A DNA stretch of 64,000 nucleotides from an uncultured Pirellulaceae bacterium (GTDB lineage: Bacteria > Planctomycetota > Planctomycetia > Pirellulales > Pirellulaceae), in contig CAYWSL010000001.1 of NCBI GenBank assembly GCA_964460665.1, positions 24,032 through 88,031 of the forward strand, read 5' to 3'. The translations under genes and the position numbers were made by a program. The notes under the pieces were generated by a model. The model did no database searches and was not told the DNA's origin. It saw only the letters and a program-made list of their open reading frames with translations. Shown in pieces: positions 4,227 to 50,500 of this stretch. Position 1 is the first letter of the stretch. Each line of letters starts with the position of its first letter.

Positions 4227-5231
4227 TCATCGCCAACGCCCAGTCGGCCACGCCTGAACACCTTCGGCGTAGTTATTTGGCCCCAACGCCATCAAGTCCC
4301 GGCGGCCTGCGATCCTTCCCTCTTCAATCAATTGCTCTGGCCTAGAGAAGTCGAACCACATTCGCTTGCCAACGTCAGGACGAATCACGATGTCCGCCAG
4401 TTCCATCTTTTGGCGACGAATCATCCGCTCGGCGATCTCATCCATCCGCATCATCACTTCGATCGTGGTTCCACATTCCTCAATCGGTGTGTGATCGCTG
4501 CCAACATCCACGCCGATCACCAACTGACTTGAGTGTGCACGTGCCACGGTCGTCGGCAAAGAATCCAGAACGCCGATATCGACCAACATGCCGTCGCCCC
4601 AAGGCACCGGCGGAAAGAACCCGGGAATCGACGTGGACGCTTTCACTGCTTCACGAAGCGATCCGCGTTCCAAGACAACGCGATGCCCGCTGTGCAAGTC
4701 AGCCGCCACGATACTTAGCGGTATCTCTGTATCGGCGATGTCGATATCCGGCAGCAAGTGATCGATCGTTTCACGCAACAAATTGTCACGCATTAACGAC
4801 GGACCGGTTAGCGCGCGTCGCAATCGGCGACTGTTTGCCACCGTTCGCTTCAAACGCTTGTACCAACTGCCACACCAGTTTTCAGAAAAGCCACTTTGAC
4901 TAGGCAGACCGTCACGTTCAGACAGTCGCGCAGCAGGTCCAGCCAGCAATCCAGACCTTTCCAGAAAGATCGGCGAGTACAGGAGTTCGATCGCTTTCGC
5001 CTGCACTCGATAAATGTCGGGATCGACAGCAAACAAGGCGCCGACCAGACTTCCAATGCTGACTCCAACGATGCGCTCGGTTCGAATTCCAAACTCGCCG
5101 ATCAGTTCCAATGCACCTAGATGCGCAAGTCCCCTCGCCCCGCCGCCGCCTAACGCGACGACCGCCTGACGTTCTCCCCCGGGCGTCAACACTTCTTCCT
5201 TGCGGAAATTGAATAGCTCAATGAGCTTCAT
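4227..5231 (-). CDS. Patatin-like phospholipase/lipase (start probably MKLIELF at 5231 rather than 5282)
   Basis: GGGGARGLAHLG oxyanion motif, GVSIG nucleophile elbow, ASTSIPGFFPP, and the catalytic Asp in a D-I-G variant (MLVDIGVLDSLP). Confidence 0.9.
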   Translation of the reverse strand: MKLIELFNFRKEEVLTPGGERQAVVALGGGGARGLAHLGALELIGEFGIRTERIVGVSIGSLVGALFAVDPDIYRVQAKAIELLYSPIFLERSGLLAGPAARLSERDGLPSQSGFSENWCGSWYKRLKRTVANSRRLRRALTGPSLMRDNLLRETIDHLLPDIDIADTEIPLSIVAADLHSGHRVVLERGSLREAVKASTSIPGFFPPVPWGDGMLVDIGVLDSLPTTVARAHSSQLVIGVDVGSDHTPIEECGTTIEVMMRMDEIAERMIRRQKMELADIVIRPDVGKRMWFDFSRPEQLIEEGRIAGRRDLMALGPNNYAEGVQAWPTGRWR

Positions 5232-24900: not shown

Positions 24901-27900
24901 GTCCCGTATCGCCAGCGCGGATATCAATGGCCGTATCAGCGGAGAAACTGATGACGTTCGAGTCGATGATAAACTGGCCTTGATTACGCACGCTATTGCG
25001 ATCGCCATTGTCTTCGCCAAGCAAGAAATCAGTGCCGGACACGATTCCTCGCAAGTGGGGTGATCCAAACGTCGATGAACCGGTTGCAGTGGCTGCGGCG
25101 TATCCATGGAAGAAGATCATGCGATCGGTCGGATCGTTTAACAAGCCGCCAGAACTGGTTGCCTCAATTCCAAGAATCGCGCGGACCGATGGGGAGTTGA
25201 TCGCGTTGCGAATCAAATCTGCCACTTCTCCAACGGTATCGGAAGTCACGTAGTCAATCGCGACGCTAGTTGACGCGACTGGCGTGTTGGACAACGTCGT
25301 GTCGTTGAATTCAAAACGGATCGTTTCGAATCCGTTTGAAAGTTCAAACGAATCTCCGTCCACCAGCTGCGCACCACTGCTTTCAACCAAGGCATTGAAC
25401 GCTCCAGCTAGGCGTTCATTCAGACGCCACCCTTCGGTTCCTGCAACACCGACCCCTATACCACCAACTCGGTTATCGATGGGCGGTGCAAAGGGATCGA
25501 TAACCTCTAGTTTTCCAGTGTTATCTACGCCCAAGTACTCTCGGCCAAGACGCACTTCTAATTGATAGGCACCACTGGTCACTTCGGAGGACGGAAAATA
25601 CGGGTTCGCAACAAGGCCTGAACCCGCTGTACTATTAGTGACGCTTTCGCCTCGTTCGGCGAGTCCAATCACGATGTCATCGATGTAGACGCCGTTATTG
25701 CCACCTACTCCGATTGAACGCTGGCCAGCACGCAATAAATCTTCAACGCTACTTACACCCCCGTTGAAAACGCCAAGCTCTGATGCGGGCAAGATGTCGT
25801 TGCTCCCAACAGGCGCAGTCAATTCCCCCGCAATAATAGGAAGTGCTGTCTGCCTGACAGTCAAGTCGTAGATGCGAATCCCACTGGTGCCATCGATCAA
25901 TGGGAACGCAGCGGGGTTTGGTCCCAGATCGGCATAGTGAATCTGGTTGACGATTGCGTCGTGAATTTGTGCTTGAACTTCATTGGCAGTCATATCCAGT
26001 TCGATTTCAATTGCCGTGCTTAGAAGATCAACACCAGGCTGACTGAGAATGAATCCATCATTTGGGTCACCAAATGTGTAGGTTCCAACTGCTGTCACGT
26101 TTGTAAATCCAACCCAGTCGGGGTGGTCGCTACTCCGAACGACACTAGGACCAAACCTTGCCGCAACCCTGTCCGCAACATCCTCTGCAGAGTCGGTATC
26201 TAGAACCAAGACTTGATTCCCCGTAGGCGTACCACTTGAAATCAACTCAACGACTGTGCCACCTGGGCCAGCCAACGTGAGTGGAGCCCCGACATCCTGC
26301 CCAGCTGGTAATCGGACAACCAAGCCAAGGTCAAACTCAAATACTTCAGTCCGATCAAGCAGAACATCACCCTGGATACTCGTTAGAGCATCTGGCATTT
26401 CTCCACTAAGCTCAATGGTGTCGCCGTCAAGAATTTGATCTGCGTCAACGGCATAAATCTCGGTCTGGTCTGGCCGAGTTTCGCCAGCCGTAGAGAATTC
26501 GTAACGGATGGTGACATCTTCGTCGCCGGCCCAAGGGCCAAGGTCAATCCTGGCCTGTCGGAATCCTTCGCCATCAAACAACTCTTGAACGAAAACCTGA
26601 GTAGATAAGTCAGTGTATCCGCTGACGTCTGGCCCAAACTCATCAATGGTGCTGTTGAAGTTTCGACCAGCAATGTTGCCGACAACGTTGTTGGTCGCGA
26701 CCAACGCCCACTGTCCATCGCTGCCAGATACATAAACACGCAATGTATCCCGCGCCGACACCGAAGCGTCGCCAAGATTAGTATTTACGTTCTCGGTATC
26801 CAACAGGTAAGTGAAATACAGTGTCGGCAAATCATCGCTACTGAATCCCGACAAGTCCAAAGCGTTGCTTTGAACGGTCCCGTGAGCTCCGCCTAGGAAG
26901 TTGTATCCCGAGAAGTTCTGAAGATCCGAAGCTGCCAAGCTGTTGACTGGAACATCTGACACATGATTGAAATCCGTGTCCAACGAATCGAACCCGAATC
27001 GCAAACTTGCACCACCTCCCACATTTCCACGATCTTGCAATGCGCCCAGTCCATGGCCAGGGATGTTGTTCGATGTGTTCGAATTGTGCCAAAGTGTTTG
27101 ATCCAATGGGCTGAAGAAGAAACCTGCATATCCAGCACCCGCATTCGCTGTATCAAGCTGAATCGATTCCGCACCAAACTCAAAGACAGGCTCGGCCACA
27201 TTAACGCCATCAAAGGCGTCTAATCGGAATGCAAACAAGCGATCAGTGCCTGACTGAATACCAAAGTACAGGTCACTAATTCCAATCGTGTCATTCACAT
27301 CGGTATAGTTAGCTGGCCCCTTAGTTACCTCGTCAAAGATAAGCAGAGTTCCTTGCGAATCGTAAATCCCTGGTAGCGTTCCAAACGGTGTTGCTACGCT
27401 TGGATTCAGCAAGAGTTCCGTATCGCTTACCCTAAACCCTGTTGGCGAGGCGAAGGTTGGCACCGTGTCCACTTGCAAATCACCAGGGGAATAATCAGCA
27501 CCGTCCCCATCTGCGTTTATGTCAAAGCTCCAAACGGCCCCTTGATCGGTAAATGCAAGTAGCGATTGCCCGCCATTGATATCTGTCACTAGGCTATTCA
27601 CGATTCCAGCAGTCGTCGGCACTTGAATTTGCGCAATAACGTCTGTGCCCGCCCACGGGGCTTCAAGTGGAATGTTAAAGTTGGCGTCGTTTTGCAGCCG
27701 TGGGTCAAGTGGACTGGCGGACTGGAACCCAGCACGCATATCGGTTTGGTTTCGACTAACCGCTTGTCCTGTGTCAGGATCCAAAAGATAGATCAGGTTG
27801 TCTGCATTGATGTCTCCAGCAAAGCCACCAATGATGTCAGCACCACCGGCATTCGCGATCACCTGACTACCACGGAATTCGGTACGATCGGCCAACCCAT

Positions 27901-30900
27901 ACAGAAACGACGTCTCAGAAATTGTGTCGTTGTAGTACGCCAGACTTCTGAACTCCACGCCATCGCCGTCCAAGGAGACACGGTTCGAGTTTGTTGTGGG
28001 ATCAGCGTCACCGTTGTCGAAATTTTCGTATGTGACAATTTCGGTTGTCCCGATGTCAGTTAAGGTCCCGTTGGAATCGATGCTGTAAACCGTATTGGTA
28101 TTGTTATCGGTCAAGTTTGGGACGGTTGGGCGTTCGATAGCCAACGTAACATTGCGCGGACTCTGCGCAGCAGCACCAATCGCGTCCGTGCCCCGGTCAA
28201 TAATCGCGTCGTGACGTCCAGTGAATGGGTTGAAAATATTCAACTGTGAATTATCACCAGCCGAACCCTGACGCCCGAAGACGATCAGCGGCAGGTCACC
28301 GAATTGCCAGGGAATGATATTTCCAGACCCATCGTCCTGGAAGCCGACCTGCAGCGCAGCGGGGGTTTGAAATGGATTGCCCGTTGGAGAGTCATTCGGT
28401 ATGTCGAACCGATCATCAGTCACTCGAATCGCTGAATCGATGGGCTCCAGTCGAGCGTTTGGGTTGGCGGGATTGCTTAACGTGAATTGCTGCAAGTCTG
28501 GTGCCATTAACGAGTTGTTGGCAACAACGACTTGGTAATTGATATTCGGTAATAGTTCCAAAGGCCCGATGAACGGGTCTCTTGCGCCTTGTGAACCGCG
28601 TGAAAGGTCATCTTGTGTTGTGGCGGGCAGCCCTGGAATGAATGGTGTGATCCTATCATCGGCGATATTCGAATCGGTACCAATCGCGATCAAATTGTTG
28701 TTGCCATCGAACAAGTACAAATTTGTGTCAGGACGCGTCAGGCCATCAGAGTAGTCCACATCGAACACCAAACTTTGAGCATTCGTGGTTGGAGGAACTC
28801 CCGGAAGAGGTGGCTGCAACCCATCACGCCCCGTGCTGAATTGGAACGTGTCGGTCGTGCCCGAATTGCCAGAGATGGAAACTGCACCTTGGTCTGTGTT
28901 GGCGAACGATCCAATGTTAACTGTTCCGCCAGGATTGCTGGCGACCTCGCCAGCGATTGTTGAATGGATGGGTAGCCCGACGACGTCGATTGCTGTTGTT
29001 GCATAGCGAATGTCAGCGTAACGAACGACAGAACCAGCGAACTGGTCGACTTCCTGCAGGCGAATCTGCACTCGATAACCACCCTGTGTCAAACCACCGG
29101 TATCAAGACTGGCATCAATTCCGGCTTCTGTTGTCAGGTCGAAAGCGGCATTGTTGCTACGAACACGAACAAAGAATGTTTGCTGGGTTCCGGTTGTCCC
29201 CGGCAGCACAATTCGCAGGCCAGAGTCACCATCATTGGTGGTGTACAGATCCCGATACTCACCAGTGGCATTTGTTGGTGCGTTGTGATCTAGCCGCATT
29301 GGAAGCGCATGACCGTCACGGATAATCCCAGTGTCAGTGTATGTCAGCTCTCCATTGTTCGATTCCGTACGTGAGTCTTGGCTGAGGGCAAGAACGCGAC
29401 CGTTTCCGTCCAAGATTTCCAATACCGTATCCAGCTGTGGATCGGTTTCGTCAATATCGATCCAGACCAGCGTGCCCCCAAACCCTTCAAAGCTATACAG
29501 GTCTTGGTCGTTGTTGTCCGCAATAGCGCCGTGAACGGTATAGCCAAGTCGAATTGTCTCGTCGCCGGATTCTGCATTGGGCGCCAGAATCCCCAGATCT
29601 TGCTGGCTACCGATCGTTGCATTCAGGTCGCCAAAGCCACCAATTTCGCCTTCATTTTCAATCACAACACTAATGTTTTGGTCGTGGCTGAACTCGTCAA
29701 ACTTCAATCCCTGCCAATCACCTGGCGCAGGGGTATTGGGCGTATTGGATGAAAGCGTCTGTGTTTGCACGCTGCCATCGGGCGCAAACGATGCTCCCAC
29801 CGTATCGTCATTGATCGAAGTCAGAATCACGGGGAAACCTGGCTGTCCTAAGACATGCAGACGTCCACCAATTCGGTCTGTGATATCAAGTGGGCGACCG
29901 GTCGCCAGAATTTCGGCATTGTCAAACTTGACGACCAACGACTCAGTCGCACTACTTTCCAACCGCAATCCACCGTAGGTGTGGAAATCGGGAATCTCGA
30001 TATCGTTTCGTAGCACGTGGACAATATCGGTATCATCCCAAACGACTTCGGTGGTCAGCACCTCGCCGCGAACGACCAAGCCATTGACGCCATTTCCAGC
30101 GGTTTGGTTGCCACGAATAACCGGGCCCGTGTTGGCAGGCGGGATATCGAACGTGTCGATATCGCCAGTTTGTCGACCAAGGTCACGATTGAATGTGGCA
30201 TTCAATGCGTTGACGTTGATGTCAATGGTCGCCCCAGCATTGTCCAGAAAGGTGTTGCCAACGATCGTGGGCTGCGTTCCTGTCACGTGAATCGTCGCAG
30301 CCGAGTTTCGAACAAAATCACTGCGTGAATTCAATTGCCCGCCACCTAGTCCGCTGGCGTTGTCACGCAAAACGCTGTTTGCAATTCGCGCGTCGGCTTG
30401 GTGGATTTGAATCGCATTGAAGGCAGCGGTACCACCACCGGCGCCAGTGATGCCACCAGCATAGGCCAGCAGCGCCCGGTCAATGCTTAGCGCACTGGTT
30501 GGTGAAGCATAAATACCGCCCCAATCTCCGGCGGCTTCTGTCGTTGCATCGCCATCTCCGTTGGTATCAAACGTACCACCAGCACCAAACTCGTCATCAT
30601 TTCGCGACGTCAGGATCACTTCATTGCCCGCGACACCCTCGGCAATCAAATTGGCTCCAAACCCAAGCTCAATCCGCGCACCTTGCGACTTCAGAATCGT
30701 ACCTGGATCCAGGACAAGGCTACCCGCAACATTACCGTGGCGAACAGAACCAACACTGGGATCTAGTACAGCTGCTGAGGTACTTGGGGTAGCCAGATTG
30801 TCAGTAAAGTCGGGTGAAGTCCGATCCAGTTGAGCAACGAGTTCGAAACTACCGCCACCAACACTTCGGTACAAACGTCGCCCAACGAAGTCGCCAGTCG

Positions 30901-33900
30901 CGGCGGGAATGTTGGTAAGTTCAATCTGGCTATTGGCAGAAACACCGAACACATCTTGCTGCACAGACCCGGGCGTCTCATTGCCTGCGGCATCCACAAA
31001 CGTGTAGCTGTACTGATAGTTTCCAGCCGCCAGATTTCCGCCAGCAACGGGGGTCAGGCCAATGATTGGAGCTGGACGTGTTGACTGTTGGACGCCGCCA
31101 CCAGCGGCTCCTTGAATGATCAAGTTTTCGTTCAACGCGTGAACAATGTCCGTGTCGTCGAACCGTGCGGTAACCTGCAAGGTTTCCAAACCACCACCTG
31201 GTGGCGTATCGATACGCACAAAAATCCCGTTGGTCGAATTATTAACTAGCGTATTGCCAAAGATGCTGGGCCCAACACGTTCATAGTCGGCAACAAATCC
31301 ATTGCCGCTAACGGATTCACTCTGGAAGCGAGGTTCAGTAAACGTCGTGACCTCGAACGTATTGGGGTCAGCCGACACCGCTGCATCCGAACTAAGCGTG
31401 ATCGTGTTGTAGGAAATTTCGGCACGTGCTTGCGAAAGATGAACTGGATCGATCACGCGATTGATGGTCGAAACTTCTCCACCGCCGTAACTGATCTGAG
31501 CGTGGTTGATGTAGTTCTGGAAGATCCCCAAACGCTCGACATCCAGTCGACCTTGTTCACGATCGACATCGTTTCGGATTTCGATGCCGCCCCAGTCACC
31601 AGCGGAAACTGGCAAGTTCAAGATGTTGCTGTTCGCTCCCAGTGTGCGATCGTTGAAGCTGGTGAAGTAGACAGGCAATTCAGGCGTGCCCTGAACCGAA
31701 ATCGTCGACTCGCTTCGATCAAAACCGTCGTCATCACTACCAACAGAAATGCGGCTGTCCAAGAACTTCATGATCACGCCTGCGTCAACCACCAACTGGA
31801 TTCCGCCAGGCAGATTCAAGTTGCGACCATCGGCCAAGGTCTGATTCAGCGACGAAATGATTCCAATTTCGTAAGCAATATTGTCACCTGGTGTCGTGAC
31901 ATCACCATCAGCACCGCCATTAGGCAGTAGCCTTACAACGACACCATCGGTGCCCGAAGCGGTCAGTGCTTCGGCGGCAGCAAGAGCGGCTGGAATATTG
32001 GTGAACGGGTTGGCCTGAGAACCAAGCGTGCTAACGCCATCTCCGGCTTCCTTGTTGACAAAGATCGTATTGGGCGCAGTTGGCTCGAACCAAAAATCAT
32101 AGATCCCGCCCGCTTCGCCATCTCGGTCGCCATCCAACAAGCTACCATCGGCGTCGATCATCGCCCCCGTGGCTTCGGATGTAAAGTCAACGCGTAAGTC
32201 ATAGACTCCTTCGGTTGTGCCACCAGGGGCTGGCACACCGGAATTAGGATTAAACGACGTGTTACCATCCGAGGCAACACCAATATAGTAGGTCGCGCCT
32301 GCGTCGACATCGTACTGAATGAACGAATCTGTCCCAAAGTAGTCGTTGTTGCTGGCGACAAGTTCAAGGCTACCGCCTTCTTCCCGGTAAAGCGTCAGGC
32401 TGGTGTCCAACAAACTGGAGTTGGGCAATCGTTTGGCAATTGCGTTGATTTCCAAGACACCTGTTTCGGCCACATCGATTTGATAAAGGTCCACGTCCCG
32501 CGACTCGTTTTGCATGAGCAGCAAGCCGTGAACGATATCATTGTCACCAGGAAACACCGGCTCAACACGAGGTTCGTTCACCGTCCGTACAGTATCTGGG
32601 TAGGGAAGGCCGTTTCCAAGTCTATCTCCCAGAACCGTACCTGGCGGCAAGTCATAGGCATGGCTAAGCCCGAGTGCGTGACCTACTTCGTGAAACGCCA
32701 CCTCGAAGAAACCACCACCGAAAACATCGTTTGCAGGATTACTGAAATCAGCCGTGTCTAAGATGGATAGACCGGGTGCCCCCAGTCCTGCGACGCCGCC
32801 GGGTCCGCTAACGAATCCCGGAGCGACTGCTGCAAAGTCTCCAACAAGCAAACGCAACCCACCCGCCGCATCGTCTTCAAAGAACTGGACACCCAACAGA
32901 TCCGCGTAAATGTCTAAAATCTCTAAGTAACGTTGCTCTTGGGCCGCATTGATGTCATTGAACAGCGGATCACCCTGGCTATTGAAACCATAAGGTGCAT
33001 TTCGCAAAAACGTGTAGGAGATCGTCCTGATCGCATTATCAGCGTCTCGACTGCGAGGTACTCCAAGATGATCTACGATTTCGATGTCACGGTGCCCCGG
33101 TTCATTGGTGCTGCCGGGATTGTCGACTTGTAGAGGAAGTCCAACGTTACGAATTTCTTCGCTTAGGCTGATCGACCAGCTTCCGCTGCTGGCGACAGGC
33201 AGTGTGTTGGCTGTCGCCGTTGTGAACCCAGGATCAGCAAAGACATTGTGTGGGGTTACATCTAACGCTGAAAAATCGGTGCCTTCGCCAATTCGCAAAC
33301 GCAGCGAGTCGCCTTGATCGGCAACGAAGTTATCCAGGTTTGCCGCAAACGTCAGCGTCACCTTTCGGTTAATCGGGTCAACGGCGACTCCACCGGCAAT
33401 CGGATTGACAATCACATCGTCTTCGGTGGTCACGGTATTACCAGTGTCTACCAACTGATAGAACGTTGGGTCGGCTATGGTGCTACCGTTGCGGAACAAG
33501 TCGTCGTCGTCAAAGTAAACATCGATTTGATCTAGTCGTGCTGTGCCATTCGTGTCGATGGGCTGGGGGACAACCGAAATGACCTTCGCACCCAACTCGA
33601 TCTCGAAGCTTATGACTTCACGCTCTAAGGTTGGGTCGCCTTCAACGGGCTGTGGAAAATTGGGCGCAAACGGCAGCAGAGACGTACTCTGCAATTCTGA
33701 AGTAATTGAAAGCTGGTAAAAGCCGTCCGCCAGATTTTCAGCGAAACGCAATGTCGCAATGCGCTGGGAGTCGTCCAGTCCGATGAACCCAATTGCCACT
33801 TGCTCAGAATCCAAAGCGAAGTTGCCCGACTCGCTGAACTCGACAGTGATCGCGGAATCCAAATTGGCTGGATCAATTCCATCGTTGCCACCAAACGTCA

Positions 33901-35350: not shown

Positions 35351-35431
35351 GGAAGCAACACGCAGTTCAAAAAGGCAGTGAATGAAGTCAGAGGATGAAA
35401 TGCAAACTCTGAGAACAAAAATCAAAAATGG

Positions 35432-38500: not shown

Positions 38501-41500
38501 CATTGGTGCTCAAGACAAATGTCTCACCACCAACCGTGCTGTTGTCAATCACTTCGTAAGTGAACGAATCAAAAGTGCCGATCTCGTTATTGAAATCCTG
38601 TGGTGGTGTGTAGAAGAAGCCAACCAAGGTTCCGTTGACCGTTTCTCGCTCAATCGTTCCGCCAAGTGTTGTTGTCGATACATTGCCTGGCGAGCTAATC
38701 GTCAGTTGCTGGCTGCCACCTTCCTGACTGCTATCTAGTTCGTTGTCGGGTCCGACGGTAAAGACATCCAGCAGTCCAATTTGGCTGTAGCCGATCACGC
38801 TTGTGTCGCGTTGCAATGGGATGAAGTAGCGTTCCAGCAATCCCTGTGCCTGCGTATTGTCTTCACGCAAGGTGTAAGTGATTGGAGCCGCACTGCCGTC
38901 AGCCGCGACTACCACCGAATACGCCTCATCCGGGCTTAGGCTGTCACTGCTGGTTGCCAGTGGATCGAATCGCGGCGCGTCATTGACCGGGCGAACCTGA
39001 ACGGTAACCGTGGCATCCGTACTTGCTGATAAGAAGTTTGGATTGTTTGGATCAGCGTCCGTTCCACGGATGACATACACCGCCGTGCCGATTTGATCGG
39101 TAGCCGGGAAGAATGTTAGTCCGCCGTTTAGATCAATGATCGGATCTTGTGTCATCAATCCCGCTGGTACCGTCGAAAGTGACGGAACGATTTGGAATGA
39201 AACCGTTTGGTTGGCGACTTCGTCCAGGGCGCTAGCCATCGATGGCAGCACGTTCGTGATGACTCCGGGTACCGTGAAGCCGACGACGTCTTCCAAGATG
39301 TTAATCTCGATCGGAGTGTCGAATGTCGGCGGATCATTGGTCTCGTTCACCGTGATGGTAACGGTCGCTGGCAATAGCGATCGTTCAACTGGCAACGTCA
39401 CCGTCGCGTTGGAGCCGGGGATCGTGGTTTGGCCATTGTCTTCAATGGTGTACGTGAATAGATCATTAGGCTGAAACGGTGCCTGCTGGTTGTAGTCAAT
39501 CGGCGGCTCGTAGCTACCCGTGGTGAATGCGCCACCGGCAAAAGTAAAGGTCAGTAACCCACCTGCGGATGTAGTAAGAGTGTGAGTGCCGTTACCATCA
39601 ACAGCAACGTCGATCGTTCCCAAGCTCGTTTCAAACGCGACGACTCGCAGCGACTGTTCGACTTCGTTGAATGGGGCCGCAAGGGTTTCGGGGAAGTTGC
39701 CTGCTGTGTTGGGGTTTTCTTCTACAGCGACCGACACGGTATTCACGAATGAAACCAAACCGCCGGCTGCTGTTGCTGCGTAGCTATTCGATCGCAGTTC
39801 AGCCTCCAAGCGGCTGGCGATTGTCGTGCTACTATCAAGCGGATTGAACAGCACTGTGAAGTCGGCATCGGCAGAGAAGACGCCGTCTGTCGTGAACTCA
39901 GCAATCGCGGTCAAGCCACCGTCAAACGTGATCGTGATTCTTTCGCCGTCGATTAATGATGCTCCCGCAGGAAGCAAAATGGAATCGTTGGAGACAACCA
40001 CTGATGTCAGCGGCTCAGTCGCAATCGCGTCATCGACCGCGACGAACGCAACGTCAGCACCAGTCGCAATCACTCCAAAGCCCTGGGAACGCAATGTTGC
40101 CTGCAGGCTTGCCGCAACGGCATCAGCCGTATCGGTAGCCGTGACGACGACCACAAAGTCGGTACCAGCCGATGGAGTCCCTGTCGTATTGAATTCGACT
40201 ACTCGAATGGTACCTGCACCATCGTCAATGGTAATCGTTTCACCGTTGACCACGCTGCCACCTTCTGGAAGCGTGATGACGTTTCCATCTCGCGCGATCT
40301 GAGATGTAGGATCGTTGATCGCGACAGCTTGGATATTGACGAAGCGAGCAATCCAGTCGCCGCCTGCGCCAGCCAGTATTGCTGACCCAAAGCCATTGTT
40401 CGCCAAAGCGGTTTGCAATGCGCCCGCAATGTTCTCGGCAGTATCCGTGCGATTGAACGGAACCAATACATCCGCTCCGCTCATGGACAGTCCCGTTGCC
40501 GAAAATTCAAACGTTACCGTTCGTCCATCCGTATCGGTTACCGTCAACACTTCGCCGCCAGTAAGGGACTGGCCATCCAAAACGCTAACGCTAGTTGCAG
40601 TAGCCGTAACGCCAGAGTTGTAAGTGTCAGTGGCAATCGAATCGACTTCGATAAACGAAATCGTGTCGTTCAGGACGCTCCCACCCAATCCGGCTCCGCG
40701 AAGTACGGCAGCCAAATTCCCGGCGATCACATCGGCTGTGTCTGTCAACGTGTAGCTAACGAAAACGTCCGTTCCGACGGATGCGGATCCACTTGTTGTT
40801 AACTCAACCACTCGGCTGACGCCATCACTACCGACAATCGAGAACGTTTCGCCATCAATCAGATCGATTCCGTCAGGGATCGTCACGCTGGTACCAGTGA
40901 TCGTGATCGGCGAATTGGCGTTCAGTCCACCGCCATTGATAAGGTCCAGTGATGTAAAGCTAAGGACAGCCGGTCCAGCTGGTTCAATCGCTTCGTCAAT
41001 CGATAGCGATCGGTCAAAGGCAAATGGGTTGTCGTTGATTGGTTCCAAGAAGATCGTGGCGGTGACTTCGCTGATCAATGGATTCGCTGTCCGCGTCCCA
41101 TCAGCCGCTTCATCAACTCCCTGGTCGACAACTTGGTAGACGAATTCAACGTCACCAAAAATATCATCAGCAGGGATGAAGTTAACATCGCCAGCAACCA
41201 AAGAGATTTGTCCCGTTGCCGGGTCCACTAGCGAAACGTCAACAATGCTGACTGCGCCGTCGTTACTGCGGACGAAGGTGACTTCATCAGCGGCAGTGGA
41301 CGGACCACTGAAGTCGTTCGCAAGCAAGAAGGCCGTGGGGATCACGAGCGCCGTGTCCTCCGTCGGCACCGGAGCCACAGCGTTGATCGATGCGTAAAAC
41401 GCAAGGTAGTCCGTATCGTTTTGATTGATGGTCTCGCCGGTCAGGTCAGGCGGATCGTTTGTTGGTGTCACCGTCACCGTCGCGGTAGCCGTTACTTGTC

Positions 41501-44500
41501 GGGCTACACCGCTGATGACTGAACCATCGTCAAGGAAAAGTTCGCCGTCGTCGGTAAGCGTGAATTCAAACTCATCCGTTCTTAAGCTGCCATCGGCGAG
41601 CGGAAGATTGTCGCTGTTGAAGTCCACCGCGGGCGTGTACAGCACAGTCGTGATGAAACCTTGAGCGTCAAACAGCGCGCTGATCGTGGCGCCTTCATCA
41701 GTAGTCGCCGTGGCGTTCGCGCTGCTAACGATAACCCCGCCTGAACTGATGGATTCCACGTGTAGAATCTGGTCCGATTCGTCTTGCGGTGGCGTCGTGA
41801 TTGCTGGCGATGCATGTCCTGTAGCACCAGCTAGTAATTCGGCAGCCGAAATCGCCAGCGTTGTATCCTCAACACCAATGAAGCTCTGGTTTTGTGCTCC
41901 AGGGATATCGTTGATTGGCTGGACATCAATCGTGACGGTCGCGAAAGTCGAAGTCGTCGGCGATCCAGGGCCTGAATTCTGCTGCGTGCTCAATCGATAC
42001 GTGAAGGTATCAATTCCAAAGAAGTCTTCGTTGGGTTCGTAGGTGAACTCGCCTGTCAATTCATCCAGAACGGTCAACGTTCCGTTTTGAGGCTGATCAC
42101 CAACGAAATAGCGAACAGGAAGGATCTGAGTGGCTAGGTCTTGGTCGTTGGACAACAAGTTGCGCTGGGGACTTAGTGCATCGACTACCAATGTCGTGTC
42201 TTCGATCGCTGTGTACTGATCATTGACAGGTACTGGCAAGGCAATTGGCAGAACAGAAATTTCAAAGTCTTCGACCTCTCCGCCGACGCTAACGCCGGTA
42301 GGCGTCAAGTTGCCTGATTCGCTGATGCGAACTCGCATCCATGTATCACCTTGGGTAGCATTGCTTGGAGCAAAGAAGTTGACGATGTTCTCTCCGTTAA
42401 CAACAGCTACGTTAGAGATCACCTGCTCGTCAGCTTCAAAGAAACCGTTGCGGTCAAAGTCAACCCAGGCGTCTAGTAAACCAGCCCCAACCACGTTGAC
42501 GATCGTGGAAGTTCCAGCCGGATCAAGTGGGTTCAAGAACCCGATGACGTCATCTCCTGACACGTTGTTCGGTGGAGTCCCCGGTGTCGTAAAGACGTGG
42601 AATGGGATTCCAGCGTTGTTGACAAAGATCCCGGTCGAAATACCGTCTTCGTCATCGATCGCTTCCAATATGATCGCTCCGTCAACCGTGTCGACCGTCA
42701 TGATGATGGACTCATCAATCCCGTCGATCTCTGCTCGAATGGCTTGCGAAAGGTTGCGAGCGATGTTTCCTGCGGTGTCGCCAGCGACGAAATTGACCGG
42801 AACGTTTCCTTGAGCCGGGTTGGATGTCGACAACGTCAACTCAAACGTCGCCGTAACGTCCCCCGCTTGAATCGTCAGCGTTTCACCACCGAGTGGTTGG
42901 ATGTTTGCGATGTTGATGCTACGTGTGCTGGCGTTTGGTGCAACGACCGTGAAGACCAGCCCAGTCTCGGTTGCGTTCAAGACGAGAGGTGTATCATCAC
43001 CGTTGGGAGTAGACGCCCCGTCAGTCTCCGTATCCAAGAAGTTGCCCAATCGCGGCACCCGGTCGCTGGACACTGTGTGTCGTGCACCATTGTCCGCGTC
43101 CAGCGTTCCGAAAGAAGCCGGAGCGTCACCGTAGTCGAAAACGACATCTGGCATGATGATCGTAAAGCGAGTTTCGTCAGTGATGCGAGTTTCGCGAACT
43201 GGGTTGCCGGCCAAGTCGGAAACAGCAGGCAACAGAGTCCCGATGCTCGATGGCACACTGCCGCCAAACGTTGCCTGAATAAGCTGCGTGTCGGAGATCA
43301 GAAGCGTGCCTGCTCCGGGGCTGGTCACAGTCACACCCGCTGCGGAATTTCTGATGGCGGCTTGCAGGGCAGCTGCTGTTGAGGCGGAAGTGAACTGGGT
43401 CGTTGGTATGAATGGAACGACAACTGCATCTGTCGTGACACCGGGCGAACCCAGCAAAGTCATGCCCGACTGGTCCAATGTCAAAACGTCTCCTACAACA
43501 CCACCTACCAAGACGGTTCCATTTCCAACCGCCTGCGCCGTGCCCAAGCCAAGGCCGTGAACGTCCAAAGCAATTTCCGCGGCAATTGCCTGCGCGATTT
43601 CATCCGGTGTGTCCGTGTTCGAAATCGCGATTGGAACGAAGCTTGGATCGCTTACCAGAGCGTCTTCGGTTAACTGAAATGTCACCGACTGAGTGCCACT
43701 GGTGTAGGTGAACGTGTCTCCATCTGCCAAACCTTGATCGACCCCTGTTACGTCGGCAGAGGCAATCGTGCTGGTGATGGTGTGTCCGGTTACCGTACCG
43801 AGCTGAAGTTGGCTTGCACCAATCGATCTAGGTGTCAGCCCTAGGACTTCAGCGGTTGTCATCGTCGGATCAAGCGGGTCCGCCGAATTCAGCAAATTCA
43901 AGAATGCGTCACGAACTTGTACAACCGTTCCGGCGTCTCGTGCATCAAATATGATATTGGACGACCCTGCCGTGATGAAGTTATCAAGGTCCACTTCGAT
44001 CGTGCGAGTGATGCCTGATGGCGACGTGATCGTCAATGTTTCTTCGTCCGTCAAATCCGCATTCGTTCCACTGAATGTCAAAAGCGTTGATTGAGGGACC
44101 TGCAAGCTGAATCCACTGTCGAATTCAAAGACCGTTGCCGTGCCGTCTTCTTCGATCGTGGTGACTTGGTCACCATCCAAGATTTGATCACCAGCCGGCA
44201 GTGTCACTTCGATACGCGGCCTGTTATTTATCGTGATCTCATAAACCGAATCCGATCGCCACAAACCGGTCAAGGGTGTCAAGCGAATGGTTCGGCTATT
44301 TGAACTGTAGCCAAAGATGTAATCTTCATCTGGAGTTAGCTGACGTCCGTTTTCGGTAAGGATCACGTTGCTGGAGTTGATCGTCAGTGGGTCCAAACCG
44401 GTGCCGGCGGTGTCAGTCAACTGAACATCAAAGAACTCAACGATGCCTTCAGCCAATCGCACAAACGACTGGTCGACATCCTGGTCGCCGCCAGCAACAG

Positions 44501-47500
44501 CAAGGCCAACTGCATCTTGTGGCCCAACCAAAACCGCAACTGGCCGTTCAGTATCCGCACGGTCAATCGCACCGCGGTCAATGAAGACGTTGATACCGAC
44601 ACCACCCGGAGTTGCAACCAATGGATCATCCACGCGAGCTTGACCGTAAACGTCAAACCCAGGGGCGATAATCGGTGATGGAGAAATGCCAACCGGTTCT
44701 TTGACCGTTTGCAAGAAGTCTGCGCGATCGGGCAGTGATGCAAACGAGCTGTCGATCACATTGGATCCCGTCGCTGGGATGTAGATTCGTCTCGCCGGAT
44801 CCTCGAACAACTCCACTTCTTGTGGGACGACGATCGCCGATGTTGAGATCGGAATCGTCGCGTTTGTTGTGTTGTTTTGGTAAGCATTGTTACCAATGAT
44901 CACATCGCCGAATTGGTCAGCGGTCGTCACGATCCCTTCATCGAAGAACGCAACCACGTTGTTCAAAATCGTTGGACTGGCCGATCCAGCGACACGAATT
45001 CCGTCACCAACGCCTTGGCCGACGACCGTGTTGTTGACGATTCGACCAAACAAGGAACTGGTCGCGACACTGCCATTCGCATTCGTATCGCCCTGCAACA
45101 AGATGGCAGCATCGCCGGATGCGACCACCACGTTGTTGCTAATCACAACACCAGGAATTAGGGAATCCGTATTCTGGTTGCGCAGAAGCGCCGCCGAACC
45201 CGGAGTAGGCAGGTCCCCAGGCACAGCAATTGCATTTGTGCCCGGTATGCCAACTAGCCGCACGTCACGATCGGCGTTCGTTGCACGAATTCCGACCTGA
45301 GCTGAATCACTAACGAAGTTGCTGGAGATGATGATCTGCCCTTGAGGACTGACTCGATTGGTATCACTGATGCCGAACTGATAGTCAACCATCAAGACAT
45401 CACGATCCGGCACAGCAGCCGATGTCGCTGCGTTCGGTCGCACCGTCAACTGGTACTCGCCAAAATCAGTGATTAGTTGATCGGGAAGGAATAATGCCGT
45501 GCTGCTGACGACGATGTCGTAGTATGCCGATGTGGGAGCTTGGAACTGCAGGAAGGCACCGGCTTGTGATTCGCCAGGAGCAGATGTCGGTGCGAGCAGC
45601 GATGTCTGCGCTAAGATTTCAGTCTGTGGCAGATCGACGAATTGTCCCGAAATGGTTGTGGCACCAAATCTTCCTTGTTCCAAAACCGTGATGACGGGCA
45701 AGTCCAGGACTTCGCCTGCCTTCGTGAACCCTAATGTATCGACATCAATATCGATGTTGTCACCGGCTTCCAAGTAGACGCGAATGGAATCCCAGTCTAG
45801 TGACGGATCAGAGGCCACAATGACAGCACCGTCTTGCAGGTTGCCGACTTCTAAGCCAGTTGCCACGTTGTCGCCGATCCTACCAACAGCAACCAACGTA
45901 TCGGCCCCACCATCCACGAACTGCGTCACGGCGGACCGAGGCAGTTCATCGCGGTTGATGGCACTGGTAACCGTTTGCGTCGTGTGATCAACAACAGGGA
46001 TTTGCCTGGAACTCTCGCGACCTTGGAAATTCTCTTCGTCGACCAAGTCGACCTTCAGGAAACGACCGCCAGAGTGGTTCACCGCGATGTTCTCGCCAAA
46101 CAGTTCGACGCGATTACCCGTTGGAACGCCAGATTCAAGGCTGTCGCTGGTCGCAGCAGTGATATTGAGAACGCTTTGGACTTGTGCCGAATTGATGGCA
46201 TCACGCACGGCACGTGCCACGAACGCAGAGTCCGAATTCGCATTATTGAACGCAACACGCACGTTGCCTGGCGTGACGGTACCATCGGTGGTACTGTCGA
46301 ACTCGAACGTCAGCAAGCGGTCGCCGTCATCCAGCGTAAACGTGTCTCCGTCGATCAACGACGATGGCGGAGGCACGATCAGGGTAACGGCACCATCGAC
46401 TAAGCGATCGTTTGTATCAAACGAACGCCCCAGTCCTAGCTGCTCAGACAGTTGCAGGTTGATTGGGTTATAGTCTTCTTCGACACCATATTCATCACTG
46501 GTGCGGATTTCTAGCGAGTACCCACCCACTAAAATCTCGTTCTGGCGTTCTGGCTGAACCGCTTGCGGGTGAGTGTCGGGCAACGTCTCAGGGTTGAACA
46601 CGAACGACGTGTCATTGAACGGAGCATTCAGGACCAGTTCACCACGTTCGGCAAAACCGACGATGATGTCATCGATGAACACGCCTTGAACTTCGTTGTC
46701 CAACGCACCGTTGCGGCGAACGCCACCTCCTCCATAAAAACTAGCTTGGTCTTCGCCAAACTCGTCACCTGGAACTGGAGTGGTTGTGAACCCGCCGCCA
46801 GAGAAAATTTCGAAGCCGGATACTCCGAAAGCACCGGCATCTTGTGGAGTGACATTGAACAACTTAATTCGGTCACCTCCATACACCTTGTAGTTGTCGC
46901 TCGTTGCGGTGGTGACACCATCGATGGTCGCAAACCGACCAAACCCGTCGGCAAATCCAGCCTGCAGTCGCTCCGCCACTTCGACGGTTGTCATGGTGGA
47001 CGTTACCAGAATTGGTGACGAATTGAGCGACGACTGATAGCTGATCACATGCGATCCTGGAGTTGTCTGCACCGAACTTGCATTCAGCAGATAGATCTCG
47101 CGTGTTCCAACCAAATACGGCTGCAATTCAATCGGAAGTTGGGCAAAGATATCGGCAGCAACCACATCAGCCGGTGCAAGCGGATCAAAAGTCAATTCGC
47201 TTGGGGCACCAGTCTGTAGGTTCACGTCAACCAAGGTGAAGGTTTGCGCATTGGCTCCAGTCAGGTCATCCTGGGTCGTCACTGTCAACGTTTCACCCGA
47301 AGTGATCTCCGAGCCATTCGGAATGGTTACAGGGATCGCGTATGTGACGACGTCTTCCACGCCAACCAACGTTGCAACGGGGCTGACTCCCAACGTCGCA
47401 AACGTTGAATTGAATTCATCGAAGATGTTGATGCCAGCACCAGTCGGATCGATATAGACCTGATGGTTGACGGACAAGCCGTCGACGATTTGTGCATACA

Positions 47501-50500
47501 GATCCTCAGCCAAGTCGGTTGGATCGTAAAAGACTTGAATCGTCCCAGCATCCGGGACAGTCGATCCGCGAAGGATGAACGTGATTGTATCGGTCGGGAA
47601 GAACCCAAAGTTGCTGATGTCAATCTGCTCACCATTTCGCAGTTCGGTTGCATCAGGAATGTCGAGGTTCACCACGTTCTCGGTAAACACACCTGGAACA
47701 ACCTGGATATCGCTAGCACCCAGTTGATGCACAACCGTATCGGCGACAAAGAAAACGGTGTTGCCTGAAAGTGTTGGGTTCCAAGCTGTCTCCGTTGCAG
47801 CCAGCAATCTGGTTGCGACCTGACCGGCCGAATCCGTTGCTTGAAATGCAACTTGGTTAGGGCCGACAGGTCCTGCTGTGTCTACAAACTGGATGGTCGT
47901 AACCACACCGCCAACGGTTACATCAATCGACTCGCCGTCGATCAGATCTGCCCCTGCCGGTGGCGTGATTGACTGCCCATTGGTGAACGCACTACTGATT
48001 TGCGAAGTCGGCTCGGATGCAGCAACAGCTGTGGCACCATAGACGATCAAGCCCCCCGCACTGTTGACGGTTGGGAACGCAAGCGCGGCGGCAACGCGAG
48101 CACGAATGACCGCTGCGCTATCGGTAGTCAGATAGCTAATCGTTCCAGGAGGCCCCGGAACCGCACTTGGAAAGAACTGCAAGTCGGTGAAGCCACTGGC
48201 CGAATTCAACCGTATGGATTCTCCCGGAATCAAATTCGCTCCCGAGGGGAACGAAATCGTTTGCGATGGTACCTGGGCCAAGACCAATTCAGTACCTGCG
48301 ACATCGGTGATTGCACCGGACGCGACGACCAAAATGTCATTGCCCTGTCGGATCGACAGAAGCTCATCTGGCAAAGCCGCTAACAATCGCGTGGCAATCG
48401 TCGCAACAGTGTCTCCTGCCTGGAAGCTGACGGCACCTGGTCCGCTAGGATTGGCGGTATCAGTAAACGTGACAACCGTTGTTCCAGCCGGTGATGTCAG
48501 CGTCAGCGTTTCACCATCAATCAGATCGTCACCGCTGGCAGGCGTAATACGGATCCGGCTCTCGTTCACTGTCCTGGCATTGTCAATCACAATTTGTGAA
48601 GTGGATGCAGTGGTAAATGCCGTGACAGGATTCAGGAAATTGATGACGCCGTTGCCGTCAAAGATCGCACCAAAATCGCTTGGTAGAAGCGAAACGACCC
48701 GGCGAGCAATGTCATCAGCCGTATCTGCATTGGCAAAAACGACTTCCCCAGGTGCCCCCGTTGGGAAATTGACATACGTCAATTGGATAACCGAAGTCTC
48801 ACCAAACAGAGTGAACGATTCGCCAGCGGTCAGATCACTGCCATCGGGGATCACTAGCTGAGTCGCGCCGGGACTGCCCGGATCAAAGAAAGGAGGCTCA
48901 TTTAGGAACGAGGGTGGGGTTTCCGATACATCGATCTGTACGGGATTCGACTGTCCAACTGGAATGTCACCAATCAAACCGATGTCGGTTGCAGCCAAGA
49001 AGCTTAGACTTCCATCGCCATTGTTTGCCGGGTTTAACGAACCCGGAATGATCCTCAGCACTTCTTCGGCAACGTCATTCGCTGACATAAACGCATTAAT
49101 CTGAACATCCCCTAACTGCGAAGGGGGACCAGTCACAAAACGAATCGTGAATGGACCATCGGGGCCAGTGACTGTGAACTGGTCGTTGTTGTCCAAGTCG
49201 ACACCGCCTGGGAACACAACGTCACGTCCAACAATGGTCTCCAATACAATCTGATTGAGATTGTTGTCGGTAAAGAAAAGTTGCTCTCGGTCGATGACTT
49301 CATCACCAGGAACCGCTACGAAATCGACCGAACCGAACTGGGTTCGCATTGAACCGGCTGTTGAGAAATCGAATCGAATACGAACGTTTTCGCTTCCCGC
49401 GAGCGGCCCCAGGTCCACACGTGACTGACGCCACTCTTGCGTGTCGTCGAACAGTTCTTGGACAGGGATGTTCGTGTCGTTGAAGTAATCGAATTCATCA
49501 TCCGCGACCAATTCGCGGAAGTTGTTGTTCGTCGCCAGCAATTGCCATTCGCCGTCATCGCCTGAACCGAACACTCGGAAGCTATCGTTCTGATTGCGAA
49601 CAAAGTTAGAGTCGTCGTTTTCTTCAACTTCCAAGAAGTAGGTGAAGTACAGCGTCGGCTGGTCCGCAGGGCTGTAGCCTTCCAGGCTGAAAGCGCGTGA
49701 AATGATAGAACCGTGGCTACCACCTGGCGCGATATCTCCATTTGCGTCATCTGGCGATCCGATGGTGTTGTCGTCTGGGTCGTTTGCGGTGACGCCAAAA
49801 TACAGGCTTTGCCCACCAAAAGTTCCGGTTCGACTTCGGTCTTCCGGAACGTCTAGCCCGTGTCCGGGTTCGAGTCCGCGGCTACCTGTTTGTTGGAACA
49901 GGCTTTCCTCTAAATGGCTAAAGGCAATTCCGGTCGGAGATGTGAACAACGGCAATCCTGCGAAACCATCGTTGAACGTAATCGGAATTGCAGCACGGCC
50001 GTTGTAGAAGACATTGGCGGGCTCAACTTCGCCCGCCTCGTTGATTTCCAACGCGTACAACCAGCCGTCCTCGGTCGAGGCAAAAATCGTTTGTCGATAG
50101 AGACCGTTTTCGATTACTCGTGGTCCCATCGCCATTCCAGTGAACACTGGCGAGGTTGCGAAACCAAACGTTGACGCTGCGTGTATTGGATCCAAAGGCA
50201 CGACACCATGGAACGTTGTCGGAATCACTGAGTCGTATCCGAACGCCGGGCTGGTGTTCGGCGCTGGGACGGTCACACCCGGTATAAACGAGTGCACACC
50301 ACCATTGTCAGTGACTGCAAAGAACGTATCGAAAACCGAAGATCCGTCGGCCTCGATTCCGATTCCGGTAATGGTACCTTCATCGCCACCGGTATTGAAA
50401 ATCGCACCCGTGTCGATGATTCCCCACTCGAGGTCAGCCGAAGCGGGCCCTTGGTTGGGGAAGTAGGGAACGTTCCCTGTAAATTGACGGTGTGCATTCG

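What the first reader, a model, noticed from the sequence alone, without database searches (positions are those of the whole stretch)
46945..49330. Slot 1: nested expansion from 1 inner module (A) to 7 (B)
In A the outer module (AVDADQILDGDTIEL..FEFDLG / AIEIELDMTANEVQAQI, 25945-26460) encloses one inner copy. In B the equivalent outer halves (AVPGDEVIDREQLFF / PILVTSTMTTVEVAERL) enclose seven diverged copies (~795 aa). By-eye module totals are A ~4, B ~17 and C >=7, so this module is the main length and shape variable of the family.
Basis: partly seen in the sequence, partly recalled or inferred. Interest (0 to 1): 0.65.

Follow-up and report, generated by a model that had tools for sequence, protein, structure and literature searches.

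The report
Seven protein modules nested inside one
In a giant surface protein of a marine planctomycete, an unannotated ~100-residue domain is split open at one hairpin loop and holds seven more copies of itself (one copy in the neighbouring paralogue), and the same loop holds from 0 to at least 13 copies in relatives, which is an unusual self-nesting way of building a protein side branch.

Summary
Observation confirmed. Window 46945-49330 (minus strand) encodes residues 2932-3727 of the 7529-aa protein B. It holds seven mutually homologous ~100-aa modules. Leave-one-out HMM scores are 21-65 bits, against a shuffle maximum of 9.6 bits. A lone N-half precedes the seven and a lone C-half follows them. 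With half-module HMMs the slot reads "(()()()()()()())". Paralogue A is collinear and has one inner module, which matches B's position 1.

The nesting reading is well supported by sequence. Co-variation over 849 modules shows one cooperative fold, and the split lies in its beta3-beta4 hairpin loop. 52 of 69 related slots end with a lone C-half. Some relatives nest five levels deep.

The whole array sits between the last two strands of a MAM/CBM-like jelly-roll. Relatives with an empty slot (15-24 aa) show that domain uninterrupted.

The array is old: 14-39 % identity between copies, no DNA repeat, and each position orthologous across genera. Growth from 1 to 7 is favoured but not proven.

The module has no Pfam, NCBIfam or PDB relative, yet it occurs in about 1680 protein clusters. 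I rate it a new variant of a known principle, the split domains of fibrillar adhesins. The function, a side branch on a surface fibre, is inferred.

The parts
49344..49832 (-). Host jelly-roll domain, N-terminal part (B ~2765-2927), ending in ...ENVRIRFDFSTAGSMR
   Evidence: Upstream-anchor HMM hit B 2796-2927, E 4e-73. Foldseek of the homologous A model hits MAM, Eph-LBD and CBM jelly-rolls over ~145 columns.
49227..49331 (-). Outer (split) module, N-half: beta1-beta3 (B 2932-2966, FVAVPGDEVIDREQLFF...IVLETIVG). Degenerate.
   Evidence: N-half HMM hit B 2935-2955, 5.1 bits. Aligns collinearly with A's outer N-half. Spliced with the C-half it scores 14.3 bits, against a control maximum of 10.5. 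Strands are predicted in the AF2 model but at pLDDT <50.
48870..49226 (-). Inner module p1 (B 2967-3085). Counterpart of A's single inner module.
   Evidence: HMM 44 bits. Leave-one-out 22 bits. BLASTP of A against B runs into it. Groups with single inner modules in the trees.
48564..48869 (-). Inner module p2 (B 3086-3187)
   Evidence: Leave-one-out 39 bits. pLDDT ~75-87 with the pattern b-b-b-b-a-b-b-b.
48270..48563 (-). Inner module p3 (B 3188-3285)
   Evidence: Leave-one-out 64.9 bits. Part of the p3-p5 clade supported at 98/95.
47985..48269 (-). Inner module p4 (B 3286-3380)
   Evidence: Leave-one-out 30.1 bits. Position is monophyletic across genera at 98/88.
47682..47984 (-). Inner module p5 (B 3381-3481)
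   Evidence: Leave-one-out 57.7 bits. 39 % identical to p3.
47346..47681 (-). Inner module p6 (B 3482-3593)
   Evidence: Leave-one-out 23.9 bits. Position is monophyletic at 100/97.
47034..47345 (-). Inner module p7 (B 3594-3697)
   Evidence: Leave-one-out 21.4 bits. Position is monophyletic at 98/92.
46845..47033 (-). Outer (split) module, C-half: beta4, helix and following strands (B 3698-3760, PILVTSTMTTVEVAERLQAGF...YKVYGGDRIKLFN)
   Evidence: C-half HMM hit B 3704-3724, 8.4 bits. An HMM built without the slot hits B 3702-3725 at model positions 41-64. The AF2 model gives a strand at 953-958 and a helix at 964-978 of the construct. The same lone C-half is present ~100 aa before GFAERGE in all non-empty slots.
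46605..46844 (-). Linker and closing strand of the host jelly-roll (B 3761-3840, ...GVFIDDIIVGFAERGE)
   Evidence: The downstream anchor is invariant in alignment A1. In empty-slot relatives this strand follows the R-x-F-E-F strand after 15-24 aa.
25841..26461 (-). Counterpart in A: outer N-half (A 2989-3034), one inner module (A 3035-3131), outer C-half (A 3132-3195)
   Evidence: Half-HMM hits: N at 2994-3007 and 3024-3033, inner C at 3070-3091, outer C at 3138-3161. The AF2 model of A has the element order b-b-b / b-b-b-b-a-b-b / b-a-b-b with pLDDT 76-92.

Best explanation
Slot 1 of protein B is a homotypic nested domain insertion.

Shown by sequence analysis:
- The building block is an uncurated ~95-100-residue alpha/beta module with the element order beta1, turn 'L-x-DGE', beta2, beta3 'FEF', beta4, helix 'DTAxxIAxxI', beta5-beta7.
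- One copy, the outer module, is opened in the loop of its beta3-beta4 hairpin.
- A head-to-tail array of seven complete modules is threaded through that loop, after which the outer module is completed by its beta4, helix and last strands.
- The outer module itself lies between the last two strands of a MAM/CBM-like jelly-roll domain, so there are three levels of nesting.
- Paralogue A has the same arrangement with a single inner module, the counterpart of B's position 1.
- The array is ancient and each position is orthologous across genera, so it is a fixed structure and not a fast-varying repeat.
- Across the family the same loop holds 0, 1, 2, ... up to at least 13 modules.

Inferred, not shown:
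- The two outer halves re-associate into one fold.
- The array forms a lateral branch on an extracellular fibre or adhesin, and its length sets the reach or valency of that branch. The protein carries an N-terminal planctomycete extracellular motif, a beta-helix, cadherin-like and Big_9 repeats and a C-terminal dockerin. The analogy is with the split domains that project ligand-binding domains from RTX adhesins.
For: - Homology of the seven copies.
- Lone N-half before and lone C-half after the seven; string '()'.
- Spliced halves beat all 2000 random splices.
- In 21 one-inner loci the segment before the inner module always hits model positions ~3-37 and the segment after it ~33-77. 13 of 21 N-side segments exceed the 99.9th control percentile; 16 of 21 C-side segments exceed the 99th.
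- 52 of 69 slots end with '))', 37 start with '((', and 19 are perfectly balanced at depth >=2, including L055 '(((()))())(())'.
- DCA on 849 modules (Meff 753). The strongest coupling links F33 in beta3 to I62 in the helix (z 12.9), across the split point. Pairs 34-46, 32-44 and 30-44 show a beta3-beta4 antiparallel hairpin, so the insertion site is a hairpin loop with adjacent entry and exit.
- AF2 model of B: seven modules with the same element order at pLDDT 75-90, followed by a strand and a helix for the outer C-half.
- AF2 model of A: outer halves structured, pLDDT 68-89.
- Empty-slot relatives (L072, 15 aa; L073, 24 aa) show the host domain uninterrupted.
- Slot lengths fall into discrete classes from ~250 to 1637 aa.
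- Host fold resembles MAM, Eph-LBD and CBM jelly-rolls.
- Age of the array.
- Protein context.
Against: - No 3D contact evidence for closure.
- In the B model the outer N-half and the host jelly-roll have pLDDT <50, and pTM is 0.37.
- B's outer N-half is weak on its own (5.1 bits). A's outer halves score 7.7 and 6.4 bits.
- Co-variation across the split could not be tested, because outer modules almost all carry F33 with I, L or V at 62.
- How a seven-module array returns to its entry point is not known.
- There is no functional evidence. The module has no characterised relative.
Confidence: 0.72

Rival explanations
1. This is a plain tandem array with decayed ends. The seven modules are an ordinary head-to-tail repeat. 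The 'outer halves' are remnants of two partly deleted modules at the edges of the array, which now serve as linkers and do not fold together.
For: B's outer N-half is degenerate: 5.1 bits, and pLDDT <50 in the model. No 3D contact was checked.
Against: - The lone halves are conserved and complementary in nearly all non-empty slots across the phylum, whatever the inner count. N is always first and C always last.
- No 'outer-only' or 'array-only' state was seen among 69-72 slots.
- The strongest co-varying pair in the family bridges the two halves, so a lone N-half would expose its core Phe.
- Runs of five successive N-halves followed by runs of C-halves (L035, L055, L074) cannot arise from decayed ends.
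Confidence: 0.14
2. The pairing is daisy-chained (shifted) and not nested. Each N-half pairs with the C-half of the following module, so the extra N at the start and the extra C at the end come from a register shift along an interlocked chain.
For: The B model shows long continuous strands running from one module into the next: 430-445, 532-542, 628-638 and 725-739 of the construct. This hints at tight coupling between modules.
Against: - Contiguous N+C pairs are predicted as compact units with high pLDDT.
- Single modules with both halves adjacent are the norm elsewhere in A, B and C.
- With five N-halves in a row, shifted pairing would require crossed, intertwined chains.
- The beta3-beta4 hairpin couplings favour closure of a simple loop.
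Confidence: 0.08
3. The region is a rapidly varying repeat, for phase, antigenic or phage-evasion variation, whose copy number changes by slippage or recombination.
For: Slot occupancy differs widely across the family, from 0 to at least 13.
Against: - There is no DNA-level repeat.
- Copies are 14-39 % identical.
- Each of the seven positions is orthologous across Stieleria, Novipirellula, Rubripirellula and relatives. Slot length is ~890-950 aa in 12 B-type loci.
Confidence: 0.03

Closest known systems
Split domains of RTX fibrillar adhesins (MpIBP, FrhA, AhLap; PMC12077191 and Graham et al. 2024, cited there)
   Same: A domain of a giant fibrillar surface protein is interrupted in a loop, a folded insert buds out, and the chain then returns to finish the host domain. 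Multi-level cases exist: in AhLap a vWFA domain buds from the RTX beta-roll and is itself split by an insert.
   Different: In RTX adhesins the host is usually an Ig-like domain and the insert is a single, different ligand-binding domain. Here host and insert belong to the same family, and the insert is an array of 1 to at least 13 copies. Nesting can recur five levels deep. The protein has no RTX or type-I secretion features; it has a planctomycete N-terminal motif and a C-terminal dockerin.
Slot 2 of the same genes
   Same: Same module family, same split point after 'FEFxxG', same genes. I also see B's slot-2 N-half at 4636-4680 followed by two inner modules and a C-half near 4899.
   Different: Slot 2 lies in a different host domain and holds fewer copies. 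Slot 1 is the largest array in B and sits in a jelly-roll loop.
Tandem extender-domain arrays of giant adhesins (Big_9, cadherin-like, 'tandem-95 repeat protein')
   Same: Repeated ~100-residue modules that set the length of a giant surface protein. B itself carries such repeats at its C-terminus, and NCBI gives its orthologues this name.
   Different: Those repeats are all-beta Ig-like domains arranged strictly head to tail along the main axis. The module here has a helix, has no Pfam or NCBIfam model and is placed inside loops.
Classical heterotypic nested domains (for example the PH domain of PLC-gamma split by SH2-SH2-SH3; from my own knowledge, not checked here)
   Same: A domain split in a loop by an inserted array of domains.
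   Different: The inserted domains are of other families and there is no recursion.

Membership tests
Split-domain architecture of RTX adhesins | The host domain is interrupted in a loop by complete folded domain(s) and then completed | tested here: met
   Lone N-half, seven complete modules, lone C-half. Spliced halves score above all controls. This is sequence-level evidence only.
Split-domain architecture of RTX adhesins | The insert is a different, ligand-binding domain | tested here: not met
   The inserts are homologous to the host module.
Split-domain architecture of RTX adhesins | [quoted passage not shown] | tested here: not met
   Pfam finds Planc_extracel, Beta_helix (weak), Big_9, Cadherin_4/5, GEVED and Dockerin_1. 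It finds no RTX or HemolysinCabind.
Split-domain architecture of RTX adhesins | The two host halves pack into one fold in 3D | not testable with these tools
   Model coordinates are not returned. Only secondary structure and pLDDT are given.
Giant Pirellulaceae 'tandem-95 repeat' / GEVED / dockerin surface proteins | Big_9 and cadherin-like repeats, a GEVED domain and a C-terminal dockerin in a protein of more than 5000 aa | tested here: met
   for B and for C. Orthologues at 40-51 % identity carry this name at NCBI.
MAM / Eph-LBD / CBM-type jelly-roll (host domain) | Beta-sandwich jelly-roll fold | tested here: inconclusive
   Foldseek of the A model gives InhA2 MAM-like domain at E 2.8e-3 (probability 1.0), plus meprin, EphA4, reelin and CBM27 over ~145 columns. 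TM scores are low and the host region has modest pLDDT. No Pfam hit.
Beta-grasp / ubiquitin-like fold (for the module) | An individually significant sequence or structure match to ubiquitin-like domains | tested here: not met
   The profile hits poly-ubiquitin only as a sum of sub-threshold repeats ('stretches 0'; di-ubiquitin E ~0.05). Foldseek of the confident seven-module model finds no ubiquitin-like chain.
Any curated domain family (Pfam-A, NCBIfam) | A hit above the gathering threshold on the module | tested here: not met
   No family matches the slot-1 region or the four tandem modules at B 5742-6144.

The most novel reading that the evidence does not exclude
The module is a previously undescribed domain family (about 1700 protein clusters) with a built-in insertion-permissive beta3-beta4 hairpin. 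That hairpin allows recursive self-insertion: arrays of up to at least 13 copies and nesting up to five or six levels, well-formed like balanced brackets. This would be a natural 'fractal' way of branching a protein fibre that has not been described for any domain family.
Probability: 0.55. Interest if true: 0.72.

Novelty: new variant of a known kind. Interest (0 to 1): 0.55.

Why it matters
- Giant planctomycete surface proteins are almost wholly uncharacterised. This work defines a new domain family in them and a simple grammar for where the copies sit.
- Domain insertion is known, and split domains are used to locate ligand-binding parts of adhesins. Insertion of a domain into a copy of itself, repeated in arrays and recursively, is at most very rare.
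- If the fold is confirmed, it offers a natural scaffold that tolerates very large inserts in one hairpin, which is useful for protein engineering.
- It is a clean system for studying how domain insertions arise and grow: the same loop is seen with 0, 1, 2, 5, 7, 9-10 and 13 copies.
- It also gives a practical rule for annotating these 5000-8000-residue proteins, and a ready HMM for curation.

Tried and rejected
- The first genome scan, with the slot and its flanks as a single protein, found nothing because the patterns came from variable stretches. It was repeated with an alignment of the conserved flank.
- I tried to test Tyr33-Thr62 co-variation across the split. Outer modules are nearly all F with I, L or V, so the test is uninformative.
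- My first splice control reused real N-halves and unmasked segments, and gave inflated control scores. I discarded it and redid it with masked controls.
- Foldseek of the B model against PDB gave only noise: E > 0.06, probability <= 0.33.
- Profile hits to poly-ubiquitin and the designed 'Pizza' propellers are sums of weak per-repeat matches. I rejected them as repeat-on-repeat artefacts.
- BFVD hits to uncharacterised Caudovirales proteins reach E 5e-9 but have TM ~0.07 and rmsd > 20 A, so they say little.
- A text search for precedents of homotypic nested insertion found none, but the search was narrow.
Full report
CONTEXT. The window carries three giant ORFs in tandem on the minus strand. 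A is 15983-35425 (6480 aa from the first TTG; the real start is probably the ATG 25 codons further in). B is 35535-58124 (7529 aa). C is 58335 to beyond 63998 (at least 1887 aa, 5' end cut). B has a planctomycete extracellular N-terminal motif, a weak beta-helix match, and Big_9, cadherin-like, GEVED and dockerin domains at the C-terminus. Orthologues at 40-51 % identity occur in Stieleria, Novipirellula, Rhodopirellula, Rubripirellula and many Pirellulaceae MAGs, and NCBI names them 'tandem-95 repeat protein'. The genes downstream of A are unrelated: DUF1598, arginyl-transferase, a beta-oxidation cluster, patatin and an M16 peptidase.

OBSERVATION. The finding maps exactly to B residues 2932-3727, and its A counterpart to A 2989-3161.

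- A profile seeded from one module far outside the region (B 5742) converged in two rounds on 25 modules: A 3, B 16, C 6. Seven of them lie in the finding at a period of about 100 aa.
- A profile built only from the 18 modules outside the slot detects five of the seven above the best score of 200 shuffles of the region, 9.6 bits.
- In leave-one-out tests all seven score 21-65 bits.
- The copies are 14-39 % identical, with p3, p4 and p5 the closest.
- Neither Tandem Repeats Finder nor seed-based repeat search finds any DNA repeat.

EQUIVALENCE OF THE A AND B SLOTS. Both slots lie between the same two anchors. The upstream anchor is a ~130-aa segment ending R-x-R-[FY]-[DE]-F-S-T-A-G (A 2845-2983, B 2796-2927). 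The downstream anchor is the motif G-[FL]-A-E-R-G-E (A 3254, B 3823). BLASTP gives two collinear HSPs: A 2804-3087 with B 2770-3022 (35 %, E 3e-30) and A 3244-3428 with B 3813-3996. The first HSP runs through the outer N-half into the first inner module, so A's only inner module corresponds to B's position 1. The length difference between the slots, 634 aa, is six modules.

IS THE OUTER MODULE REALLY SPLIT? I have six lines of sequence-level evidence.

1. Spliced outer halves score 12.2 bits (A) and 14.3 bits (B) over the whole model. Both exceed all 2000 random splices, whose maximum is 10.5.
2. I examined 21 slots with one inner module, using an HMM built only from the window and controls masked for modules. 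The segment before the inner module always matches model positions ~3-37, and the segment after it ~33-77. 13 of 21 N-side segments exceed the 99.9th control percentile. 7 of 21 C-side segments exceed the 99.9th, and 16 of 21 the 99th.
3. With separate N-half and C-half HMMs, B reads '()'. One-inner slots read '()' and two-inner slots '()'. 52 of 69 slots end with '))', 37 start with '((', and 19 are perfectly balanced at depth 2 or more. Deviations are undetected weak halves, not reversed order.
4. Mean-field DCA on 849 non-redundant modules (Meff 753) gives as its strongest coupling by far F33 (beta3, 'FEF') with I62 (helix), z = 12.9. This pair lies across the split point. The pairs 34-46, 32-44 and 30-44 show that beta3 and beta4 form an antiparallel hairpin. 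The split therefore lies in a hairpin loop (model positions 35-43) whose entry and exit are adjacent, and the N-half cannot bury its core without the C-half.
5. The AlphaFold2 model of A (24-row alignment, mean pLDDT 62, slot region 76-92) has the element order b-b-b / b-b-b-b-a-b-b / b-a-b-b. The spliced outer halves thus reproduce the pattern of the inner module.
6. The B model (13 rows, mean pLDDT 64) predicts all seven modules at pLDDT 75-90 with one common pattern. A strand (construct 953-958 = B 3702-3707) and a helix (964-978) follow for the outer C-half. The outer N-half and the host domain are below pLDDT 50.

What is missing is a 3D contact check. The tools return no coordinates. A test of Tyr33/Thr62 co-variation across the split was uninformative, because outer modules nearly all carry Phe with Ile, Leu or Val.

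THE HOST. I took 80 related loci from species-representative genomes; at least 534 relatives were found. In them I measured the distance between the two anchors.

- Some relatives have an empty slot. L072 has 15 aa and L073 has 24 aa, and L048, L051 and L057 are similar. There the strand '...R-L-x-F-E-[FY]' is followed after a short loop by '...G-x-[FY]-[IV]-D-D-[IL]-I-I-G-F-A-E-R-G-E'.
- The whole array is therefore an insertion between the last two strands of one domain.
- Foldseek of the A model places that domain among MAM, Eph-receptor-LBD and CBM jelly-rolls. Hits include the InhA2 MAM-like domain (E 2.8e-3, probability 1.0), meprin beta, EphA4, reelin and CBM27, over ~145 columns.
- This gives three levels: jelly-roll, outer module, inner array.

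FAMILY-WIDE VARIATION. Slot lengths fall into classes: empty; 240-273 aa (18 loci; outer plus one inner; the commonest state, found across Pirellulaceae and Planctomycetaceae); about 320-360; 390-465; 530-560; 605-670; about 820; 894-997 (12 loci, the B type); about 1150; 1272; 1363-1484; and 1637 aa. No 'outer-only' state of ~150 aa was seen.

In the longest slots, five N-halves follow one another at 35-45-aa spacing, then come a complete module and a run of C-halves. L055 reads '(((()))())(())'. In L035 the lengths add up as 5 x 40 aa of N-halves, one full module, and 339 aa for five C-halves. Self-insertion at this hairpin is therefore recursive in the family.

AGE AND DIRECTION. In a tree of 60 modules, six of the seven B positions are monophyletic across six orthologues from several genera. 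The seventh, p5, falls inside a p3-p5 clade supported at 98/95. p2 is sister to that clade. A's inner module groups with p1 (86/86, on a long branch).

In a tree of 108 modules, all single inner modules and the first modules of intermediate slots fall on the same side as p1, and L017 and L028 fall inside the p1 group. p2-p7 and their orthologues in slots with 8-10 modules form the other side. A separate lineage (L015, L018, L025) expanded independently from its own p1-type copy.

The seven-module array therefore predates the divergence of these genera, and growth from one copy is the more likely history. The backbone support is weak (35-87 %), so loss in A's lineage is not excluded.

THE MODULE FAMILY. 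The module has no Pfam or NCBIfam model, no PDB relative by sequence and none by Foldseek. A profile of 20 window modules, run against 1.84 billion cluster representatives, finds 1680 proteins at E <= 1e-3, 605 at <= 1e-10 and 173 at <= 1e-30. Almost all are multi-copy (4-22 stretches) and very long.

'MAIN LENGTH VARIABLE'. Among 19 full-length proteins, length rises by 92 aa per detected module (r = 0.82, r2 = 0.67). A is a leverage point, and other cassettes also differ between A and B (and notes). This claim is partly supported.

MECHANISM. Shown: the architecture at sequence level, its conservation, and the range of occupancy. Inferred: the outer halves re-fold around the base of the array, so the array forms a side branch leaving and re-entering the main chain at one point. 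The closest documented principle is the split domains of RTX adhesins, which project ligand-binding domains away from the fibre axis and can be nested (PMC12077191).

Each of the seven positions is conserved as its own orthologous lineage. The branch therefore looks like a defined structure with position-specific roles, not an interchangeable spacer. Whether it binds something, and what, is unknown.

VERDICT. The expansion is ancient and stable. The module is a new, uncurated domain family. The principle of split-domain insertion is known, but homotypic, array-forming and recursive self-insertion is a new variant. An earlier follow-up in this scan reached the same reading for slot 2 of these genes. 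The present work adds slot 1, the host domain, the family census, the co-variation evidence and the bracket grammar.

Noticed in passing
L035, L055, L074, L037, L041, L071, L079 (slot 1 of relatives; for example L035 ORF-fragment aa 627-2015): There are up to five successive N-halves, then a full module, then runs of C-halves. L055 reads '((((())))(()))((()))'. This suggests self-nesting five or six levels deep in planctomycete MAG proteins.
   Followed up: partly
L072, L073, L048, L051, L057: In these relatives slot 1 is empty (15-24 aa between the two jelly-roll strands in L072 and L073). They show the host domain uninterrupted. No 'outer-only' state of ~150 aa was found among about 70 slots.
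   Followed up: yes
L015, L018, L025 (slot ~670 aa): These loci show an independent expansion to 4-5 inner modules. Their extra copies cluster with their own first module and not with B's p2-p7.
   Followed up: partly
module model positions 33 and 62 (for example B 'FEF' strands and 'DTAxxIAxxI' helices): There is strong Tyr33 <-> Thr/Ser62 co-variation: 35 of 57 Tyr33 modules have Thr or Ser at 62, against about 5 % overall. This is a likely side-chain contact between beta3 and the helix.
   Followed up: partly
window 42900-44220 (B ~4636-4940): This is a second nested site in B. An N-half at 4636-4680 ('FEFDSGFSLQVP') is followed by inner modules at 4689 and 4798 and a C-half near 4899. C starts with the same pattern at C 23-68 ('FEFETGFQLLLP').
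   Followed up: partly
window 39693-40907 (B 5742-6144): These four tandem modules are the best conserved in B (29-42 % identical to one another) and form their own clade in the module tree.
   Followed up: partly
window 35351-35425: ORF A as listed starts at a TTG. The first 25 residues (LIFVLRVCISSSDFIHCLFELRVAS) look non-coding, and the real start is probably the ATG giving MSHQSLPLRR. All A residue numbers in this report count from the TTG.
   Followed up: no
L049 and L066: Two relatives lie on contigs binned as Flavobacterium sp. and Chitinophaga sp. MAGs. Mis-binning of planctomycete contigs is the likely cause, but transfer was not excluded.
   Followed up: no
B model against BFVD: Several uncharacterised Caudovirales proteins (A0A516M7J7, A0A6J7VL40) match the seven-module model at E 5e-9 to 3e-6 but with very low TM. 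They may carry similar repeated modules.
   Followed up: no
window 14015-15676: A gene for the planctomycete-specific DUF1598 lies directly downstream of A on the same strand. A link to the giant genes is not known.
   Followed up: no
P0015 (7962 aa; slot 1227 aa): This orthologue has an enlarged slot 1 with a recent internal duplication of several modules. Near-identical phrases such as 'FPSGAVPLENDS' and 'FPDGSVPLRNDS' recur. The same module-bearing segment is apparently re-used later in the protein.
   Followed up: no
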